Of a stretch of 46,534 nucleotides of DNA, positions 2,070 through 31,125 are shown in pieces. Made by a program: the position numbers and the translations under genes. The stretch lies in the IMG/VR virus record IMGVR_UViG_2667527666_000009, one strand, 5' to 3'. This DNA is from a virus (Duplodnaviria > Heunggongvirae > Uroviricota > Caudoviricetes). Within the stretch, counting starts at the first letter, position 1. Every line of letters starts with the position of its first letter. The notes beneath the pieces are model-generated. The model was not told the DNA's origin and made no database searches. It was given only the letters and a program-made list of their open reading frames with translations.

Positions 2070-2303
2070 ATGAAATCAAAAGACACCCTAAAGTGGTTCC
2101 CTGCGCAGCTTCCTGAAGTAAGAATTATCCTAGGGGATGCTGTAGTGGAAGTAGCAAAACAGGGAAGACCTATCAATACCAGAACATTGCTTGATTACAT
2201 TGAAGGAAACATAAAGAAAAAATCATGGCTGGATAACAAAGAATTATTACAAACAGCGATATCAGTTCTTAAAGACAACCAAAATTTAAATGGTAAAATG
2301 TAA
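2070..2303 (+). CDS. ydfK: small cold-shock-associated prophage protein YdfK/YnaE family
   Basis: ORF 2037..2303; internal ATG at 2070 preceded by AAGGAA; product MKSKDTLKWFPAQLPEV... matches recalled YdfK. Confidence 0.7.
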   Translation: MKSKDTLKWFPAQLPEVRIILGDAVVEVAKQGRPINTRTLLDYIEGNIKKKSWLDNKELLQTAISVLKDNQNLNGKM

Positions 2304-2618
2304 TATAATTAACTTACTTTTTTATCATTTTCCACTTTAACAACATTTTGCTCCACTTTTCCACGACCAAACAACTTGAAATCTGGTTAAAATAACACGC
2401 AACACTATTCTTCTTCCTTGAGTCCGCCTGGAACTCGAAAAACAAACCGAATTAAAGCCATTTTTCACAAAATCGATTTTGGGTCTCACCAAAATTACGG
2501 GGTTGCATACGCATTCGTTTATTTTCGAACGTGTACATACAAATATGCACAAAAATAATCAAAATTATTTTCTGAGATGCATTATGATATGAACACCAAT
2601 TTCGTATAGAGTCTCACT

Positions 2619-3209
2619 ATGTCTCGAATTTTTGCTTACTGTCGGATATCAACGCTGGATCAGACCACCGAAAATCAACGCCGGGAAATCGAAAGTGCAG
2701 GTTTTAAAATCAAACCTCAGCAAATAATCGAAGAACACATTAGCGGCTCAGCAGCAACCAGTGAGCGTCCTGGTTTTAACCGGTTGCTTGCTCGCCTGAA
2801 ATGTGGTGATCAATTGATTGTGACAAAATTGGATCGCCTTGGTTGTAATGCAATGGATATCAGGAAAACAGTGGAACAACTGACCGAAACAGGTATCAGA
2901 GTGCATTGCTTAGCATTGGGGGGCATTGACCTGACCAGTCCAACAGGAAAAATGATGATGCAAGTAATTTCAGCAGTCGCTGAATTTGAACGAGACCTTT
3001 TACTTGAACGCACTCATTCCGGGATAGTAAGAGCCCGGGGCGCAGGGAAACGTTTTGGTCGACCACCTGTGTTAAATGAAGAACAGAAACAGGTGGTATT
3101 CGAACGGATTAAGTCAGGTGTAAGTATAAGTGCCATTGCCCGGGAATTCAAAACCTCGCGGCAAACCATTTTAAGAGCCAAAGCAAAACTTCAGACACCT
3201 GACATATAA
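2619..3209 (+). CDS. pinQ: serine-recombinase DNA invertase (Pin/Gin/Hin/Cin family)
   Basis: 196 aa; N-terminal catalytic motif YCRISTLDQ (resolvase/invertase active-site Ser) and C-terminal HTH. Confidence 0.9.
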
Positions 3210-3436
3210 AAAATAATCTCGGTGTGAGATGCTTTACGTCTTCCAAGCCCCCTTCCTTGCCGTAAATGGAAAGATACATCTAATTATAGAATTTATATGT
3301 TTTACCCTACGGCAGTGCTGGCCATTCAATATCCTGTGCAGTTGACGTATCAACACGGTTCAGCAACACCCGATACTTTTTCCTGGCTTCCAGCAACGGG
3401 GTTTCTTCCTCCGTTGCATATACAGCTCACCTTTTT

Positions 3437-3730
3437 TCACCCACGATTAACCAACAGCCAGATCAGCAGACACGCCACCACCGGCACAGCAAAATCCATC
3501 AGGCTTGCCACATCCCAAACACGCGGATCAAAACCGCCCCACCACGGCATGTTAATCCGCTTGCCATGCCCGAACATTTCAATCCAGCGATATTCTGCCT
3601 GGGTGTGTTCACGCGCAATGAAGAACGTACAACCAGCTATCGCCCCATAAGCCCAGTTTCCGGTAAAAAGACCAACCAGTGTCTGCGCAGCCACAGCACA
3701 AAGCGCATGAAGAAAAGGTGTTATATCCAT
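3437..3730 (-). CDS. hypothetical small inner-membrane protein, last gene of the tail-fibre operon
   Basis: 97 aa with two or three hydrophobic helices; starts 11 nt after the upstream gene; no family recognised. Confidence 0.45.
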   Translation of the reverse strand: MDITPFLHALCAVAAQTLVGLFTGNWAYGAIAGCTFFIAREHTQAEYRWIEMFGHGKRINMPWWGGFDPRVWDVASLMDFAVPVVACLLIWLLVNRG

Positions 3731-3740
3731 TACTCCTCCT

Positions 3741-4445
3741 TTATCTAATATCGCTTCGGGAAGTTAATAACAACTTTAATTCTGACTCAAGTTCATCAAC
3801 TCTTTCAGTCAGTTTCTGGATATGGTGAATCAGTGGAACAACCAGACGTTCGTACATTACACCTTCGGCAACAAGGCCATTGCTGGAAATAGCTTCAGGA
3901 GCATCATCTTCGTTAGCTGGTCGCCAGTGTACAAACTGAGGAGCAATTTCTCCTACTTCCTCGGCAATCAATCCGTAGAATCCCCAGTCACGCCTGTCAT
4001 TTTCGCATTGCGACCTGTACCACACAGGGCGCATCCTGAAAATGAGATCGGCGTGCTCTGAATCTATTGTCTCTACTGAATGTTTATAGCGGATAGACGA
4101 TGTTGACCGCAGCACAGACGAAATTGCACGGTCAGGATTAAGATAAAGGTTTGCCGCCGCTGTAGTCGTGGCCAAATTCCATAAATAAAACGCTTCACGA
4201 CCTGTCAGTGGATAAAAATCTCCGCCATAACGACCACTTTCCAGATCGTTCACTTCCACTTTGTTTTTCAGCTTATTATCAACTTCAGTTTTTGTGTATC
4301 TGGAGCTGATATCCTGCTTTGCACTGGTCATCTCAGTCTGAAGCGTTGATACTTTTCTGCTAATTGATGAAATATCTTCCTTAGCTTTACTGACATCCCC
4401 CTTTAGCTTGGTGATATCTCCTGGAATTACTGTCGATGTAGCCAT
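3741..4445 (-). CDS. tail-fibre-like protein with coiled-coil N-terminus and peptidase-S74-type intramolecular chaperone domain
   Basis: 234 aa; N-terminal heptad-rich region (KLKGDVSKAKEDISSISRKVSTLQTEM) then a C-terminal segment resembling the autoproteolytic chaperone domain of tail spikes/fibres (SSIRYK..., GFYGLIAEEV..., terminal coiled coil). Confidence 0.6.
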   Translation of the reverse strand: MATSTVIPGDITKLKGDVSKAKEDISSISRKVSTLQTEMTSAKQDISSRYTKTEVDNKLKNKVEVNDLESGRYGGDFYPLTGREAFYLWNLATTTAAANLYLNPDRAISSVLRSTSSIRYKHSVETIDSEHADLIFRMRPVWYRSQCENDRRDWGFYGLIAEEVGEIAPQFVHWRPANEDDAPEAISSNGLVAEGVMYERLVVPLIHHIQKLTERVDELESELKLLLTSRSDIR

Positions 4446-4454
4446 TTTCCTGCC

Positions 4455-4736
4455 TCACATCCAGCCACGAAGTTGATGCTCAACAACAACCGCGTATTTA
4501 TCGAATATTGACGATTTTTTTGCATCATTAATGATGCGCACGTTTACAAAATATCCGTCTTCCTTAACACATACCGGCTCGCCATCTTCAGTAAGTTCTC
4601 CGGTTTCTTTGTACACGTTACCTATCACGTCAATAAGAATATCATCCTGCATCGACTCGTCATCATAATAGCCAGCACTCTTCATAAAGGCCGAAAAGTC
4701 GGCCTTGTCTGTGAATTTGATAATTAAATCTCGCAT
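4455..4736 (-). CDS. hypothetical protein translationally coupled to the side tail fibre gene (possible fibre assembly factor)
   Basis: 93-aa ORF; its ATG overlaps the stf stop codon (TAATG on the minus strand at 4734..4738). Confidence 0.45.
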   Translation of the reverse strand: MRDLIIKFTDKADFSAFMKSAGYYDDESMQDDILIDVIGNVYKETGELTEDGEPVCVKEDGYFVNVRIINDAKKSSIFDKYAVVVEHQLRGWM

Positions 4737-7120
4737 TATATTATCTCTCCCATTTGCGCATCGGTTAATTCTTTATGCCATATTCTAAAATTCCTGATAT
4801 AACCAAATAAATGACGTAAGCCGGCTGTAGTCTGGCCTCCAATCCTTATACCTGTAGCACCACTAACACTCTTCCACGTTGTTGATGCTGGTGTTGATAA
4901 AACCCCATTGCAGCCAGCCTGAAACTTGCCATCGCTTTTTATTCTATATACAGCGATAATCTTTCTTGGGTAATTTCCAGGTGGAAATGATATTGGATTA
5001 CCAAATTGAACATATGGAGTTCCTACACTACCTGCTGTATTTCTGAATGCAAAAACAAAAGCGTCGTCTTTTGTTTTAAATCCTGTTATATCATAAATTC
5101 TAGGCGCGGAATTTGGTGCTATAGACCAATTTTTATTCACTTCAACCATGCAGGTTAAAGGTTTGCTGGCCATGTTATTTTTACAAGGCAATGTAACAAT
5201 ATCGCTTGCTCGCGTTGATGCAACTGTATCGGAAATGATAAAAGATGATGCGCATGAGCCGCCTTCAAATTGTGGTGTCGTAACATCCAAATATTCCCCG
5301 CCCAAATAAGTTCCAGGTGAAACAGGTGGAGCAATTTGGATCTGAGAGCCAACCATATTATCAATAGCTTCAGATTGATATGTAACCTCGAAATAAATCC
5401 ATCCATTAGATTCTTTCTCCGCTCGGGCGGTTATTCTTGCAGCCCCTCCTCCCGTTTTCCTAATGGACATATCTGTTATATTAAGATATGCATCTGCCAG
5501 ATAAAAATATGCGGACCCGTCATATCTTTCAAATCTTATACGACATTGTATATTAGCACTATCGCTTTTTACACGACATGATGTTGTAACATACTTTTCA
5601 GTTCCAGTAACATCGACACCTCTTCCTCCTGAAACCGCAGCGATATTCATTGTCGTATTTGTCCCAATTTTTTCGTCCTTTATTTGAAACCGCCCATAAG
5701 TAAAGCCAAACTCATCAACACCACTTTCTGTTATAGTTACACTTGTTGTAGCTCCCCACTTAGATGGCGTAAGTGAATTAAGATGATAGTTGGTTCTTTG
5801 TCCTTCAATCAGCAAACCTTCTCGTTCAAATCGCGGTTCGTCAACTTCAGCAACGGTTAATACTCCTGATTTATTAATGTATGTTGCACCTGATGCGCGT
5901 TTGAAGCTAACAACCTTATCGGATGGCATTTTAATAACATCATCACCTACAGTTATTTGCTTATAACCAGGCGAAAAGCCAGCAAGCATATCCAGTGAAT
6001 CGTTAAACGGTATCCACACATCGGGAAGCGGCTGCAAAACTTGTTTATACGGCTCCGCAGCCTGGCTTGCATACTCTCTGGCTGCGTCTTCACTTGCTTT
6101 TGCAGCCGTCTGGCTTGCAGCGGATGCTTTCGCCGAGTTAGCCGCCGCAGTCTCGCTCGCCTTTGCGTTGGTTTCACTGGTTTTTGCAGCTTTTTGACTG
6201 TTGGCTGATGCAGTGGCAGAAGAAGCCGCCGCACTTGCAGAACCAGCTGCGGCACTCTCGCTTTGGGCCGCTGCATCCTGACTGTTTTTCGCCGCAGTTT
6301 CGCTGGCTTTGGCATTCGTTTCGCTGGTCTTCGCTGCCGTCTGGCTGGACTTTGCGTTAGTTTCACTCGTCTTCGCTGCTTTCTGACTGTTAGCCGCAGC
6401 AGTTGCTGATCCAGCTGCTGAAGTCGCAGAACCGGCTGCCGCGCTCTCGCTTTGGGCTGCTGCAACCTGGCTGTTTTTTGCCGCAGTTTCACTGGCTTTG
6501 GCATTCGTTTCGCTGGTCTTCGCTGCCGTCTGGCTGGACTTTGCGTTGGTTTCGCTCGTCTTTGCGGCTGTCTCGCTGTTTTTCGCGTTGGTTTCTGATT
6601 TTTTGGCTGCTGTCGCGGAGTTTGCCGATGCAGTCTGTGAGGTCGCTGCCGCCTGTGCGCTGTTAGCTGCATTCGTTTCTGAGGTTTTCGCCGCGTTCTT
6701 CGATGATGCCGCTGCAGTTTCGGATTTCTTTGCCGCCGCTGCGCTCTGAGAGGCGGCTTCGGCGTTGCGTGCCGCTTCTTCCACCATTTCCTCAAAACGG
6801 CGCAATGCCTCCGGCATGACATCATCTTCCGTCATGGCACCGAGAAAATCATTCAGCGTACCTGGTCTGGAACCTTCATAGACGGTAATGGTCCCGGCAT
6901 GTGAAGGCGGAAAACCTTCAACCAGCAGGGTGACGCTGTACTGGCCATACTCAACATCCATGCTGTAACGTCCGGCTTCATCCGGATTTTCAGAAGCCAC
7001 CGTGTTCACCAGTACCGTGGTGCTGTTACGCTTTGCCTTCAGTTGAATAGTGCAGTTCTGTATTGGTTTTCCCGCACCATCTTTCAGCACACCTGAGATT
7101 TTTACTGCTGCCATATCCAC
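4736..7120 (-). CDS. stf: side tail fibre protein (lambda Stf-like N-terminus, Ala/Ser/Thr-rich repeat shaft, lectin-like C-terminal domain)
   Basis: 794 aa; N-terminus AVKISGVLKDG...GRYSMDVEYGQYSV...HAGTITVYE matches lambda Stf; central low-complexity repeats; C-terminus has a laminin-G/concanavalin-like motif (FRIWHKELTDAQM). Confidence 0.85.
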   Translation of the reverse strand: MDMAAVKISGVLKDGAGKPIQNCTIQLKAKRNSTTVLVNTVASENPDEAGRYSMDVEYGQYSVTLLVEGFPPSHAGTITVYEGSRPGTLNDFLGAMTEDDVMPEALRRFEEMVEEAARNAEAASQSAAAAKKSETAAASSKNAAKTSETNAANSAQAAATSQTASANSATAAKKSETNAKNSETAAKTSETNAKSSQTAAKTSETNAKASETAAKNSQVAAAQSESAAAGSATSAAGSATAAANSQKAAKTSETNAKSSQTAAKTSETNAKASETAAKNSQDAAAQSESAAAGSASAAASSATASANSQKAAKTSETNAKASETAAANSAKASAASQTAAKASEDAAREYASQAAEPYKQVLQPLPDVWIPFNDSLDMLAGFSPGYKQITVGDDVIKMPSDKVVSFKRASGATYINKSGVLTVAEVDEPRFEREGLLIEGQRTNYHLNSLTPSKWGATTSVTITESGVDEFGFTYGRFQIKDEKIGTNTTMNIAAVSGGRGVDVTGTEKYVTTSCRVKSDSANIQCRIRFERYDGSAYFYLADAYLNITDMSIRKTGGGAARITARAEKESNGWIYFEVTYQSEAIDNMVGSQIQIAPPVSPGTYLGGEYLDVTTPQFEGGSCASSFIISDTVASTRASDIVTLPCKNNMASKPLTCMVEVNKNWSIAPNSAPRIYDITGFKTKDDAFVFAFRNTAGSVGTPYVQFGNPISFPPGNYPRKIIAVYRIKSDGKFQAGCNGVLSTPASTTWKSVSGATGIRIGGQTTAGLRHLFGYIRNFRIWHKELTDAQMGEII
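6060..6760. repeat. tandem repeat array inside stf; two near-identical 189-bp units (core 6291..6358 and 6480..6547) flanked by diverged copies
   Basis: direct comparison of the two cores shows a near-exact match at an offset of 189 bp (63 codons), giving repeated KTSETNAKSSQTAAKTSETNAKASETAAKNSQ-type peptide units. Confidence 0.8.
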
Positions 7121-7130
7121 TCCACAAAAA

Positions 7131-7152
7131 AGCCCGCCTGAACCGGCGGGCT
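7131..7152 (-). terminator. rho-independent terminator downstream of lom
   Basis: GC-rich hairpin (AGCCCGCC/GGCGGGCT) followed on the minus strand by a T-run (plus-strand A-run 7125..7130). Confidence 0.6.
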
Positions 7153-7178
7153 GTCATAACACTGTGTTACCTGGCTAA

Positions 7179-7778
7179 TCAGAATTTATAACCGACACCC
7201 ACGATGAAACCGTCAGTGCGCCAGTCACCACTGCCGGAGCCTTCATAAGCAATATCAATGGCCACGGATTCGGTCGGGTTAAACTGCACGCCAGCTCCCC
7301 ACGCCAGAGACGTGTTGCTGTGGCGATCATCATCACTTCCGGTCAGCACATCGTGCGTTTTCCCCTTGTTGTCAGTTACGCGGAGATAATCCCCGGAGAA
7401 CGTCGAAACACGGCTGTAAGCCATACCTGCCATCGCATAAGCACTGAACCATTCATTCACGCGTACAGATGGCCCCGCCATCATGCTGAACCAGCGGTTA
7501 CGCACTGAATCTTCATGCCAGCGGGTATCGCTGTAATGCGTTTTTTGCTCATCTTTGGCATTGGCATAACTGAATGACGTCACCAGCCCCAGCGTGTCCG
7601 TAAATTCATAACGGTATTTCACGTTAATCCCGTTCAGATTATCGCTGCCGGGAACGTTCGTCGAGGCATGAAGATACCCCGCGCTCAGCGTGGACTGATG
7701 TTCAGATGCCCATGCAGGCGCACCGGATACGGCCAGACAAATGGCTGCGGACAAAATGGCGGCATAAAGTTTACGCAT
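7179..7778 (-). CDS. lom: Lom outer-membrane protein (Ail/Lom/PagC beta-barrel family)
   Basis: 199 aa with signal peptide, alternating beta-strand pattern and terminal aromatic residue (GVGYKF); position immediately downstream of J as in lambda. Confidence 0.85.
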   Translation of the reverse strand: MRKLYAAILSAAICLAVSGAPAWASEHQSTLSAGYLHASTNVPGSDNLNGINVKYRYEFTDTLGLVTSFSYANAKDEQKTHYSDTRWHEDSVRNRWFSMMAGPSVRVNEWFSAYAMAGMAYSRVSTFSGDYLRVTDNKGKTHDVLTGSDDDRHSNTSLAWGAGVQFNPTESVAIDIAYEGSGSGDWRTDGFIVGVGYKF

Positions 7779-29350: not shown

Positions 29351-30374
<1,024 letters not shown>

Positions 30375-30378
<4 letters not shown>

Positions 30379-30686
30379 AGATATTTATGATGAGGACGCT
30401 CGTGCTTATTGGCAGGATTTTCAATCTTAAAGGAGTACTGATGCTGCAGATAAGACTCAACTTTTTCTGACAATTTTTCTGCTACTTCCAGGAAGACTTG
30501 CCGGACGCTCCTTCTGGCTGCTGCCTCATAAAACTCCAGCGCAGCTCCTTCAACACGGTCCATGGCGACATCCAGGTCAAAAATTTCACCGTCAAAGCGT
30601 TCTTTGTCCTGTAAGGCTACAGTTACCGTAACTTTATTCTCAAAATTACGGACTCCTTTCACAACCAGTTCATAGTCTTGAGTCAT
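30375..30686 (-). CDS. ydfR: DUF1327-family protein between holin and endolysin
   Basis: 103 aa; MTQDYELVVKGVRNFENKVTVTVALQDKERFDGEIFDLDV... matches recalled YdfR. Confidence 0.7.
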
Positions 30687-30690
30687 TGGA

Positions 30691-30906
30691 TTACTCTCCT
30701 CTCGCAGCCTTACGCCTGTCTTCTTTAATCTTGAAATAAAGATTTGTCAGATACGTCAGCAGGCCAAAAACCAGGCTACCCAGCACACCGATTGCAGCCC
30801 ACTGTGACGGAGTTACTTTATCGAGTAACTGCAATGCCCAGAAACCAGCATTACCCGCCGATGTGCCATAGGCAACACCTGTTGTTAACTTATCCATTGA
30901 TTTCAT
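30691..30906 (-). CDS. essQ: pinholin (phage 21 S-type class II holin)
   Basis: ORF 30691..30981; start taken at [18 protein letters not shown] (ATG 30904..30906); two transmembrane helices and charged C-terminus ([10 protein letters not shown]) as in S21. Confidence 0.8.
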
Positions 30907-31125
30907 ATCCTCACCCCGATGTACACGGATGGTGCAATATGTTTGAAAAGATCGGAGTCTACGGGGTAGTTTTGACAGCACACGTTGTTCTCAACGGCGC
31001 TAAAAAAACATACACATTAAAAATGTGGGTAATTATTTTGAAAGAAAGTCATATATAAAATAATAATACGAGAAATGTTTTCATATTTAGTGTACTGTAT
31101 ACGGCCATTTATACAGGAAAAGCCT

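What the first reader, a model, noticed from the sequence alone, without database searches (positions are those of the whole stretch)
3437..3730. Small membrane protein at the classic cargo position after the tail-fibre genes
A 97-aa protein with two or three transmembrane helices is the last gene of the tail-fibre operon, facing the pin invertase. Lambdoid phages often carry superinfection-exclusion or receptor-blocking genes at this position (Cor-like proteins, for example), but this ORF does not resemble those I can recall.
Basis: inference. Interest (0 to 1): 0.4.

Follow-up and report, generated by a model that had tools for sequence, protein, structure and literature searches.

The report
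Unstudied membrane protein after tail-fibre genes
This is a real, strongly conserved small membrane-protein gene of unknown function that sits right behind the host-recognition (tail fibre or spike) gene in many unrelated phages and occurs in about a third of E. coli genomes; it most likely protects the carrier cell at the envelope, but nobody has tested it.

Summary
The ORF at 3437-3730 (-) is real. It encodes 97 aa, has an AGGAGG ribosome-binding site, shows dN/dS of about 0.16, and has 579 homologues. AlphaFold2 models three helices at pLDDT 97.

It belongs to one uncharacterised family, phrog_1443. It has no Pfam, NCBIfam, PADLOC or PDB-sequence match, and Foldseek finds no neighbour. It is not Cor-like.

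It is the last intact gene of the tail-fibre operon (stf, 93-aa gene, 234-aa S74 mini-fibre, then this gene). It converges on pinQ, with a 111-nt tfa remnant in between.

Across lambda-like, P22-like, P2-like and T1-like phages, relatives lie directly after the receptor-binding gene. These are the slots that hold cor, gtr/oac and Z/fun cargo. Stand-alone chromosomal copies exist in Aeromonas and Sphingomonadales.

About 35% of complete E. coli genomes carry the gene, always annotated "hypothetical".

Charge bias and one lipoprotein-fused relative favour an N-out/C-in topology, which puts a near-invariant 35-residue loop in the periplasm.

Best guess (about 0.4): an accessory envelope-acting exclusion or receptor-conversion protein. 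Holin and fibre-chaperone roles are disfavoured. The function is untested.

The parts
3437..3730 (-). The 97-aa gene (called p97 here), a member of the uncharacterised family phrog_1443. Predicted three-helix inner-membrane protein with a near-invariant loop at residues 40-73 (REHTQAEYRWI...GKR.NMPWWGGFD.R.W).
3731..3740 (-). 10-nt spacer AGGAGGAGTA between the stop of the 234-aa gene and the p97 ATG. The Shine-Dalgarno AGGAGG lies at 3740-3735. No promoter-like site lies directly upstream.
3741..4445 (-). Stand-alone 234-aa mini tail fibre ending in a Peptidase_S74 intramolecular-chaperone domain. This is the commonest immediate upstream neighbour of p97 in E. coli prophages.
4455..4736 (-). 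93-aa soluble protein (phrog_1361, function unknown). It regularly follows this type of side tail fibre. In some phages p97 follows it directly.
4736..7120 (-). 794-aa side tail fibre. It has the phage_tail_N N-terminus, Ala-rich tandem repeats and a distal domain shared with 388-492-aa fibres of Comamonas and Chelativorans prophages.
3307..3417 (-). 3' remnant of a tail-fibre-assembly (tfa) gene, ...[34 protein letters not shown]. The p97-tfa' junction is constant in the E. coli lambdoid loci inspected, whatever gene lies upstream of p97.
2619..3209 (+). pinQ serine invertase, convergent with p97. It appears orphaned: no crossover sites or flanking inverted repeats were found. It is not functionally tied to p97.

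Best explanation
p97 is an accessory, non-structural inner-membrane protein that travels with phage receptor-binding-protein (RBP) genes. It spans the membrane three times. The favoured topology puts the N-terminus in the periplasm and the C-terminus in the cytoplasm. This places a compact, near-invariant 35-residue loop, together with polar residues H8 and D79 near the same ends of helices 1 and 3, at the periplasmic face of the cytoplasmic membrane.

I propose that this periplasmic module binds or acts on a conserved envelope component. Candidates are the inner-membrane site where incoming phage DNA enters, or an undecaprenyl-pyrophosphate-linked glycan precursor. The effect would be that the cell becomes refractory to phages, either by superinfection exclusion at entry or by receptor conversion.

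Shown:
- The gene is real and under purifying selection.
- It is predicted to be a membrane protein with a structured, conserved loop.
- It is linked to RBP genes across phage types and occupies known cargo slots.

Inferred:
- The topology.
- Which envelope step is targeted.
- That the outcome is protective.
For: Position after the RBP gene:
- In E. coli loci the upstream gene is an S74 mini-fibre (73 loci of the 234-aa type, 46 of the 346-aa type) or the 93-aa gene (42 loci).
- P22-like tailspike followed by p97, then int or the prophage end.
- Gene J, then a pectate-lyase spike, then p97.
- SGNH-esterase spike followed by p97.
- P2-like V-W-J-I-H followed by p97, in the Z/fun slot. PMC3091744 calls Z/Fun 'phage exclusion' and describes the Z-region as a hot spot of acquired genes.
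- Desulfovibrio S74 spike followed by p97.
- In 611R6 p97 shares the slot between tailspike and int with an OafA O-acetylase.

Dispensable for virions:
- T1-like virulent phage HC6 keeps an S74 spike followed by a decayed, unannotated p97 remnant. Three other phages give the same partial, unannotated match.

Kept by hosts:
- 1900 of 5426 complete E. coli genomes carry it, with a median of 2 copies.
- It is intact in E. coli B REL606, where the neighbouring stf is annotated in fragments.
- dN/dS is 0.16, against 0.34 and 0.61 for its two upstream neighbours.
- Stand-alone chromosomal copies exist.

Structured conserved loop and polar cluster:
-.

Topology clues:
- The N-tail is acidic with no K/R. 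The helix 1-2 turn and the C-tail carry K/R without acids.
- One relative (P0168) has a lipoprotein signal peptide (LVGC lipobox) directly before helix 1.

Precedent:
Against: - No phenotype has been measured.
- No promoter of its own was detected. The gene is tightly coupled to late RBP genes (10-nt spacer here, overlapping stop/start in JEP4), so expression in lysogens is unproven.
- Intact copies exist in Aeromonas phages (a 44-kb phage and 235-240-kb jumbo phages) that show no lysogeny genes in the stretches read.
- Identity of about 55-65% across alpha-, beta- and gamma-proteobacteria (40% in Desulfovibrio) is unusual for exclusion proteins, which are normally phage-specific. It points to a conserved host target or a catalytic role.
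- The loop itself holds about 5 K/R, so the positive-inside rule alone would place it in the cytoplasm.
- Stand-alone copies in Sphingomonadales lie among housekeeping genes and could reflect a cellular function unrelated to phages.
Confidence: 0.4

Rival explanations
1. p97 is a minimal membrane enzyme, or a tight ligand binder, for a lipid-linked substrate at the membrane interface. An example would be an undecaprenyl-pyrophosphate-linked glycan or another conserved lipid. Phages would have borrowed it from bacteria, and the primary effect would be biochemical remodelling of the envelope. This overlaps the receptor-conversion branch of the best explanation. It differs in claiming catalysis and a cellular origin.
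For: - Invariant or near-invariant polar residues: H8, R40, E41, Q44, E46, R58, W72, D79 and P83.
- Very confident compact fold: pLDDT 97, pTM 0.82.
- Stable chromosomal copies with conserved synteny in Aeromonas (between a pirin gene and RIO1 / lipid A acyltransferase genes) and in Sphingomonadales (beside ligA in 5 loci).
- The adjacent RBPs include predicted glycan-active enzymes: pectate-lyase-fold and SGNH-esterase spikes.
- From general knowledge, 121-aa DgkA shows that a three-helix protein of this size can be an enzyme.
Against: - No sequence or fold similarity to any enzyme, DgkA included.
- There is no conserved operon partner.
- Sphingomonads lack LPS (general knowledge), so lipid A or Kdo cannot be the common substrate.
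- 97 aa is very small for a catalytic unit unless it forms an oligomer.
Confidence: 0.2
2. p97 is a lysis accessory protein, that is, a holin-like, antiholin or lysis-timing regulator made late in infection.
For: - Its size and favoured N-out/C-in three-helix topology resemble class I holins.
- In beta-proteobacterial prophages, and in one E. coli variant, it lies directly upstream of holin, endolysin and spanin genes, sometimes with overlapping stop and start codons.
- In Aeromonas phage 62AhydR11PP it follows a likely endolysin (phrog_3108; identified from its sequence motif, not from the PHROG label) and a membrane protein.
- It is co-transcribed with late genes.
Against: - Each of those lysis cassettes already has its own canonical holin, and the holins are of different types. 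p97 is therefore neither the holin nor a partner of one holin family.
- In this window the complete phage-21-type cassette (pinholin, SAR endolysin, Rz/Rz1) lies about 26 kb away, at 29351-30981.
- p97 lacks the charged C-terminal tail of holins. It has a structured, invariant loop, which holins do not have.
- Stand-alone chromosomal copies have no endolysin nearby.
- Purifying selection is strong in E. coli prophages overall, and the gene is intact beside a fragmented stf in REL606.
Confidence: 0.15
3. p97 is an assembly or maturation factor for the adjacent tail fibre or spike.
For: It lies immediately downstream of RBP genes, where fibre chaperones are usually encoded, and is often translationally coupled to them.
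Against: - It is an integral membrane protein.
- It stays about 55-65% identical next to unrelated RBP folds: S74 fibres, P22 head-binding spikes, pectate-lyase spikes and an SGNH-esterase spike.
- S74 fibres carry their own intramolecular chaperone (Pfam PF13884, 'Chaperone of endosialidase').
- HC6 keeps its S74 spike while p97 has decayed.
- Chromosomal copies have no fibre gene nearby.
Confidence: 0.05

Closest known systems
phrog_1443 (PHROGs v4, 'unknown function')
   Same: Full-length match, E=2.7e-58, residues 1-96 of 97. All 70 diverse relatives tested also match it.
   Different: Nothing differs. This is the family the gene belongs to, but it carries no function, no Pfam model and no literature.
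Cor (phi80, N15, T1; blocks the FhuA receptor) and T5 Llp
   Same: All are small cargo genes encoded next to the receptor-binding gene and act at the envelope (general knowledge; Cor is cited in PMC10883804).
   Different: From general knowledge, Cor and Llp are outer-membrane lipoproteins that block one cognate protein receptor. p97 has three membrane helices and no signal peptide or lipobox in this window. It stays conserved while the adjacent RBPs change completely. It matched only phrog_1443 and phrog_34165, both unannotated, and has no hit in Pfam or NCBIfam.
Inner-membrane superinfection-exclusion proteins (P22 SieA, T4 Imm, HK97 gp15)
   Same: These are phage-encoded inner-membrane proteins. 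SieA blocks DNA injection (PMC10883804). p97 is likewise a predicted inner-membrane protein in a cargo slot.
   Different: There is no sequence relationship. From general knowledge, those proteins are expressed from the prophage or early in infection and are specific to a phage group. p97 is coupled to late genes and is conserved across bacterial classes.
Serotype-conversion genes after the tailspike (gtrABC, oac/OafA; small Wzy inhibitors such as D3 Iap)
   Same: p97 occupies the same slot between tailspike and int in P22-like phages, beside an OafA gene in 611R6. Several neighbouring RBPs are predicted glycan-active spikes.
   Different: There is no GtrA or acyltransferase domain. From general knowledge, Wzy inhibitors are serotype-specific, whereas p97 is conserved from E. 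coli to Sphingomonas.
Class I holins (lambda S type)
   Same: About 100 aa with three membrane helices and a favoured N-out/C-in orientation. p97 lies next to lysis cassettes in some phages.
   Different: p97 has no charged C-tail and no Met-Lys-Met dual start. It has a 35-residue invariant loop. A separate holin is always present.
P2 Z/fun locus
   Same: In a P2-like Enterobacter prophage p97 sits after the V-W-J-I-H fibre operon and before the convergent FI-FII-E-T-U block. This corresponds to the Z-region where P2 carries its Z/Fun exclusion gene (PMC3091744).
   Different: Only the position is shared. No sequence comparison with Z/Fun was made.

Membership tests
phrog_1443 | Full-length profile match | tested here: met
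   E=2.7e-58, residues 1-96 against profile positions 1-96 of 97. 70 of 70 relatives also match.
Cor / Llp receptor-blocking lipoproteins | Signal peptide with lipobox; outer-membrane lipoprotein | tested here: not met
   The N-terminus is MDITPFLHAL..., with no basic n-region or lipobox. There are three hydrophobic helices.
Cor / Llp receptor-blocking lipoproteins | Sequence similarity to the family | tested here: not met
   The only PHROG hits are phrog_1443 and phrog_34165, both unannotated. There is no hit in Pfam or NCBIfam. No direct alignment with a Cor sequence was made.
Cor / Llp receptor-blocking lipoproteins | Blocks the receptor used by the adjacent RBP | not testable with these tools
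   This needs plating and adsorption assays. Indirectly unlikely, because p97 is conserved next to unrelated RBPs.
Inner-membrane Sie proteins (SieA, Imm, gp15) | Inner-membrane location | tested here: inconclusive
   Three helices are predicted with high confidence. The location has not been measured.
Inner-membrane Sie proteins (SieA, Imm, gp15) | Homology to a known Sie or defence protein | tested here: not met
   PADLOC gave 0 hits. Pfam, NCBIfam and PHROGs gave no annotated hit.
Inner-membrane Sie proteins (SieA, Imm, gp15) | Expressed in the lysogen or early; excludes superinfecting phage | not testable with these tools
   No promoter-like site lies directly upstream. Expression and phenotype need experiments.
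Class I holin | Three membrane helices, N-out/C-in | tested here: inconclusive
   There are three helices. Charge bias and a lipobox-fused relative favour N-out/C-in, but the loop is rich in K/R.
Class I holin | Charged C-terminal cytoplasmic tail and dual-start motif | tested here: not met
   The C-terminus is ...LLVNRG, with one basic residue. The protein starts MD..., with no Met-Lys-Met.
Class I holin | Adjacent to the endolysin and the only holin of the cassette | tested here: not met
   The window's lysis cassette is at 29351-30981. Where p97 abuts a lysis cassette, a separate holin is present.
GtrA / Oac O-antigen modification proteins | GtrA-like or acyltransferase-3 domain | tested here: not met
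   No Pfam hit for p97 or for any of 70 relatives.
Tail-fibre assembly chaperone (Tfa-like) | Soluble protein with Tfa homology that co-varies with the fibre tip | tested here: not met
   p97 is a membrane protein with no Tfa match. The real tfa remnant lies downstream at 3307-3417. p97 stays conserved next to different RBPs.

The most novel reading that the evidence does not exclude
p97 is a roughly 95-residue, three-helix membrane module with a fold not seen so far. It would bind or process a universal lipid-linked envelope precursor, such as an undecaprenyl-pyrophosphate-linked glycan, at the periplasmic face of the inner membrane. This would be a generic receptor-conversion or entry-blocking device that phages of at least four proteobacterial classes attach to whatever receptor-binding gene they carry, and that bacteria such as Aeromonas and Sphingomonadales have kept as a chromosomal gene.
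Probability: 0.15. Interest if true: 0.8.

Novelty: new variant of a known kind. Interest (0 to 1): 0.5.

Why it matters
About 35% of complete E. coli genomes carry this gene, usually in two or more copies. Carriers include the laboratory and probiotic strains B, C and Nissle 1917. Every copy listed is annotated "hypothetical protein".

It is one of the most conserved elements of the otherwise highly variable host-range module of temperate phages. It crosses siphovirus, podovirus and myovirus genome types and four proteobacterial classes.

If it is an exclusion or receptor-conversion factor, it would be a new and very widespread determinant of phage susceptibility. That matters for phage therapy and for predicting host range.

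If it is a minimal membrane enzyme or ligand binder, it would be a new fold with a conserved envelope target.

Either way the question is directly testable with one plasmid and a phage panel.

Tried and rejected
Searches that found nothing:
- Pfam, NCBIfam and PADLOC gave no hit for p97. The only Pfam match was PhoR at E=0.3, which is noise from membrane helices.
- Pfam on 70 relatives gave only four sporadic weak hits.
- A profile search of PDB sequences gave nothing.
- Foldseek against PDB and BFVD gave no match with E<0.1. The top hits were PsaL-like three-helix proteins at TM-score about 0.5, which I regard as meaningless.
- Literature searches by PHROG id and by RefSeq protein accessions returned 0 papers. 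Other searches found only general background.

Ideas rejected:
- p97 lies inside a pin-invertible segment. No hix/gix-like site was found even with 3 mismatches, and there are no convincing inverted repeats.
- p97 is the holin of beta-proteobacterial prophages. Careful ORF reading found a separate holin in each case.
- p97 has its own promoter. None was detected.
- A terminator separates the S74 gene from p97. A hairpin upstream of p97 in the 346-aa-type arrangement looks like a terminator, but it is not better than shuffled sequence (z=-1.3).

Inconclusive or failed:
- Chromosomal neighbours were examined as functional clues (ftsZ, ligA, kdsB, lipid A acyltransferases). The neighbours are inconsistent and convergently oriented, so they give no operon evidence.
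- The structure prediction of the 93-aa neighbour failed (pLDDT 48), so no fold search was run on it.
- The search for related loci with the most diverse alignment failed because no stretch was conserved enough.
- The IMG/VR scans returned almost only E. coli prophages.

Full report
**The observation**

The sequence is MDITPFLHALCAVAAQTLVGLFTGNWAYGAIAGCTFFIAREHTQAEYRWIEMFGHGKRINMPWWGGFDPRVWDVASLMDFAVPVVACLLIWLLVNRG.

A consensus Shine-Dalgarno (AGGAGG, 3740-3735) lies 4 nt before the ATG. It sits in a 10-nt spacer after the stop of the upstream gene. Hydropathy shows three hydrophobic stretches at about 3-22, 26-39 and 74-94.

AlphaFold2, run with a 70-sequence alignment, gives three helices (3-22, 25-52, 73-95) with mean pLDDT 97.3 and pTM 0.82.

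The gene is not a chance ORF:
- 579 homologues at E<=1e-3.
- 330 clusters among 50%-identity representatives.
- dN/dS of 0.16 over 45 distinct E. coli alleles, lower than for its two upstream neighbours at 0.34 and 0.61.

**The surroundings**

The window starts in ydfJ, followed by ynfT, ydfK and pinQ. This is the Qin attachment region of E. coli. The prophage behind it looks complete: J, tape measure, portal and terminase are present. It has its own lysis cassette at 29351-30981, which I recognise from the sequences as phage-21-type (pinholin, SAR endolysin, Rz/Rz1).

On the minus strand the order is:
1. lom.
2. A 794-aa side tail fibre at 4736-7120 (phage_tail_N N-terminus, Ala-rich tandem repeats).
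3. A 93-aa soluble protein at 4455-4736 (phrog_1361, function unknown).
4. A 234-aa mini-fibre at 3741-4445 ending in a Peptidase_S74 chaperone domain.
5. The 97-aa gene, called p97 below.
6. A 111-nt 3' remnant of tfa at 3307-3417.
7. The convergent pinQ at 2619-3209.

No invertase crossover site or flanking inverted repeat remains. pinQ is therefore a relic here and is not tied to p97. No sigma-70-like promoter lies directly upstream of p97, and no terminator was detected downstream.

**What family it is**

p97 matches phrog_1443 ('unknown function') over its full length, E=2.7e-58. All 70 diverse relatives tested match it too.

Nothing else matches:
- Pfam, NCBIfam and PADLOC.
- Pfam run on each of 70 relatives.
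- PDB sequences searched with a family profile.
- Foldseek of the high-confidence model against PDB and BFVD.

Literature searches by PHROG id and by RefSeq accessions returned nothing. Every source name listed is 'hypothetical protein'.

**Conservation pattern**

The membrane helices vary. The stretch 40-73 is nearly invariant in the closer relatives: A-R-E-H-T-Q-A-E-Y-R-W-I ... G-x-G-K-R-x-N-M-P-W-W-G-G-F-D-x-R-x-W.

Across relatives down to about 30-40% identity, the invariant or near-invariant positions are H8, R40, E41, Q44, A45, E46, R58, W72, D79 and P83. H8 and D79 lie near the ends of helices 1 and 3 on the same side as the loop.

The E. coli protein is about 55-65% identical to homologues in Aeromonas, Comamonas, Leclercia and Citrobacter. 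It is about 45-55% identical to those in Sphingomonadales and 40% identical to one in a Desulfovibrio prophage.

**Where it occurs**

*In E. coli.* 1900 of 5426 complete genomes carry it, with a median of 2 and up to 7 copies. Carriers include strains B, C and Nissle 1917.

The upstream neighbour in the E. coli-type loci is one of three genes:
- A 234-aa S74 mini-fibre (73 loci).
- A 346-aa S74 mini-fibre with the same first 32 residues (46 loci).
- The 93-aa gene directly (42 loci).

The downstream junction to the tfa remnant is the same in the lambdoid loci inspected, whatever lies upstream.

*In other phage types.* p97 again directly follows the receptor-binding gene:

| Phage type | Gene order |
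|---|---|
| P22-like (JEP4, L246) | head-binding tailspike, p97 (overlapping or abutting), then int or prophage end |
| P22-like 611R6 | tailspike, OafA O-acetylase, S74 fibre fragment, p97, int |
| Lambda-like siphoviruses (Citrobacter, metagenome) | J, pectate-lyase spike, p97 |
| E. coli variant (57% identity) | SGNH-esterase spike, p97, two holins, GH19 endolysin, spanin |
| Salmonella myovirus | tailspike, p97, tailspike |
| HP1/P2-like Leclercia prophage | S74 fibre, p97 (abutting) |
| P2-like Enterobacter prophage | V-W-J-I-H, 71-aa gene, p97, then the convergent FI-FII-E-T-U block |
| Desulfovibrio prophage | pectate-lyase/S74 spike, p97 |
| Beta-proteobacterial prophages | fibre, small protein, p97, holin, endolysin, Rz/Rz1 |

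The Enterobacter position corresponds to the P2 Z-region. PMC3091744 lists Z/Fun there as 'phage exclusion' and describes the region as a hot spot for horizontally acquired genes.

*A decayed copy.* The virulent T1-like phage HC6 has an S74 spike followed by a decayed, unannotated p97 remnant. Three further phages give the same partial, unannotated match.

*Copies away from receptor-binding genes.* Intact copies also occur in Aeromonas phages. One is a 44-kb phage, where p97 lies next to a likely endolysin and a membrane protein. The others are jumbo phages of 235-240 kb.

*Chromosomal copies.* Stand-alone copies exist in three groups:
- In Aeromonas, between a pirin gene and convergent RIO1 and lipid A acyltransferase genes. 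The same neighbours (the lipoprotein gene upstream, the acyltransferase genes downstream) recur in three other Aeromonas species.
- In Sphingomonadales, beside ligA in 5 loci, and elsewhere next to ftsZ, pnp, nadB or kdsB, with no constant partner.
- In Leclercia and Silvania.

**Topology**

Counting K/R alone puts the loop inside the cell: about 5-6 K/R in the loop against fewer than 1 elsewhere. Four features point the other way:
- The loop carries about 4 acidic residues as well, so its net charge is near zero.
- The N-tail has no K/R and usually one acidic residue.
- The helix 1-2 turn and the C-tail carry 0-2 and 1-3.6 K/R respectively, with almost no acids. Chromosomal homologues end in tails such as RRRPRRR.
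- One relative (P0168) has a classical lipoprotein signal peptide, MKRLLAAILICSQLVG|C, directly before helix 1. This fixes that end in the periplasm.

I therefore favour N-out/C-in, with the conserved loop in the periplasm. This is an inference, not a measurement.

**Interpretation**

Five things are shown:
- The gene is real and under purifying selection.
- It is predicted to be a membrane protein with a structured, near-invariant surface loop.
- It belongs to an uncharacterised family.
- It is linked to the 3' side of receptor-binding genes across three tail morphotypes.
- It keeps its sequence while those receptor-binding proteins are unrelated to one another.

Cargo known at the slots it occupies acts on the cell surface or is labelled phage exclusion:
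- cor next to the fibre genes in T1/phi80-type phages (general knowledge; cited in PMC10883804).
- gtr and oac after the P22-type tailspike (an OafA gene is seen directly; gtrABC function per PMC10883804).
- Z/fun in P2.

p97 is dispensable for at least one phage that keeps its S74 spike. It is kept intact in E. coli B, where the adjacent stf is annotated in fragments.

My best reading (about 0.4) is that p97 is an accessory envelope-acting protein. Its periplasmic module would engage a conserved component and make the cell refractory to phages. This could happen at DNA entry, as with the inner-membrane protein SieA (PMC10883804), or by interfering with lipid-linked glycan precursors. I cannot tell which of the two applies.

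**Rivals**

*Minimal membrane enzyme or ligand binder of cellular origin (about 0.2).* This is favoured by the catalytic-looking invariant residues, the very confident compact fold and the stable chromosomal copies. There is no similarity to any enzyme.

*Lysis accessory (about 0.15).* This is favoured by holin-like size and by adjacency to lysis cassettes in some phages. Four points weigh against it:
- Those cassettes each have their own holin, of different types.
- This prophage's lysis cassette is about 26 kb away.
- p97 lacks a charged C-tail and has an invariant structured loop.
- Chromosomal copies have no endolysin nearby.

*Fibre assembly factor (about 0.05).* This is contradicted by the membrane location, by conservation next to unrelated receptor-binding proteins, by the self-chaperoning S74 domains, and by the decayed copy in HC6.

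The remaining probability is for functions I have not thought of.

The 'cargo position' idea holds up well in comparison with other phages, and the protein is indeed unlike Cor. The exclusion function is untested. Two findings argue against a cognate receptor blocker: the tight coupling to late genes, and the conservation across bacterial classes next to changing receptor-binding proteins.

**Novelty and interest**

The sequence family is catalogued (phrog_1443) but has no function, no domain model, no structural neighbour and no literature. I rate it a new variant of a known kind, namely envelope cargo linked to receptor-binding genes. There is a modest chance (about 0.15) that it is something more unusual, such as a minimal membrane module acting on a universal lipid-linked precursor.

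Interest is 0.5. The gene is ordinary in position but unusually widespread and conserved, and the question can be settled with simple experiments.

Noticed in passing
window 3307-3417 (-): A 3' remnant of a tail-fibre-assembly gene (...[29 protein letters not shown]) directly follows p97. The same p97-tfa' junction is present in the E. coli lambdoid loci inspected, whatever gene lies upstream. It looks like the fixed right-hand boundary of a swappable host-range cassette.
   Followed up: partly
window 2619-3209 (+) and flanks 2300-7300: The pinQ invertase gene is intact. No hix/gix-type crossover site (up to 3 mismatches) and no flanking inverted repeats were found, so the invertible segment seems to have been replaced by the present fibre cassette.
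   Followed up: partly
window 3741-4445 (-); L086 4915-5955: Stand-alone mini tail fibres of 234 or 346 aa share their first 32 residues (MATSTVIPGDITKLKGDVSKAKEDISS...) and end in a Peptidase_S74 chaperone domain. They are inserted between the 93-aa gene and p97 in most E. coli loci. They may be a second, branched fibre that docks through the shared N-terminus.
   Followed up: partly
window 4455-4736 (-): The 93-aa protein (phrog_1361, function unknown) regularly follows this type of side tail fibre. Comamonas prophages have 95- and 188-aa proteins in the same position that look related by eye (not tested). AlphaFold2 with a shallow alignment failed (pLDDT 48).
   Followed up: partly
L242 (Escherichia phage HC6) 3965-4120; also ST1UNAM, PBM-2, PBM-3: Virulent T1-like phages carry an unannotated, truncated p97 remnant (...RRRANIPWWGGFDWRAWDLPSLLD) right after an S74-ending tailspike. 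This suggests the spike end and p97 were acquired together and p97 then decayed.
   Followed up: partly
L157 6001-6309 (Aeromonas rivipollensis); L091, L093, L098: A chromosomal p97 homologue lies between a pirin gene and convergent RIO1-kinase and lipid A acyltransferase genes. The same neighbouring genes recur in three other Aeromonas species. No phage genes are called nearby in L157.
   Followed up: partly
L160 6970-7521; L162 2499-2996: phrog_3108 ('unknown function') sits in the endolysin position of lysis cassettes in a Comamonas prophage and an Aeromonas phage. It carries an ...GLQESRF... motif that reminds me of lytic transglycosylases, so it is probably an unannotated endolysin family.
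   Followed up: no
proteins P0162, P0224, P0254: Three family members carry an insertion of about 45 residues in the conserved loop (…YAEWHYKTYGEAEGR…YPDLQAEYARL…). It resembles a repeat I recall from glycosyltransferase-associated proteins of alpha-proteobacteria and cyanobacteria. Its meaning is unknown.
   Followed up: no
window 5953-6825 (-) and 6143-6595: Tandem DNA repeats of 189 nt, 42 nt and 21 nt encode the Ala-rich KTSETNAK-type repeats of the side tail fibre. They also create long spurious ORFs in other frames and on the opposite strand (for example 290 aa at 5953-6825).
   Followed up: no
window 29351-30981 (-): The prophage has a phage-21-type lysis cassette: pinholin, a 103-aa protein of unknown function inserted between holin and endolysin, a SAR endolysin, and Rz with embedded Rz1.
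   Followed up: no
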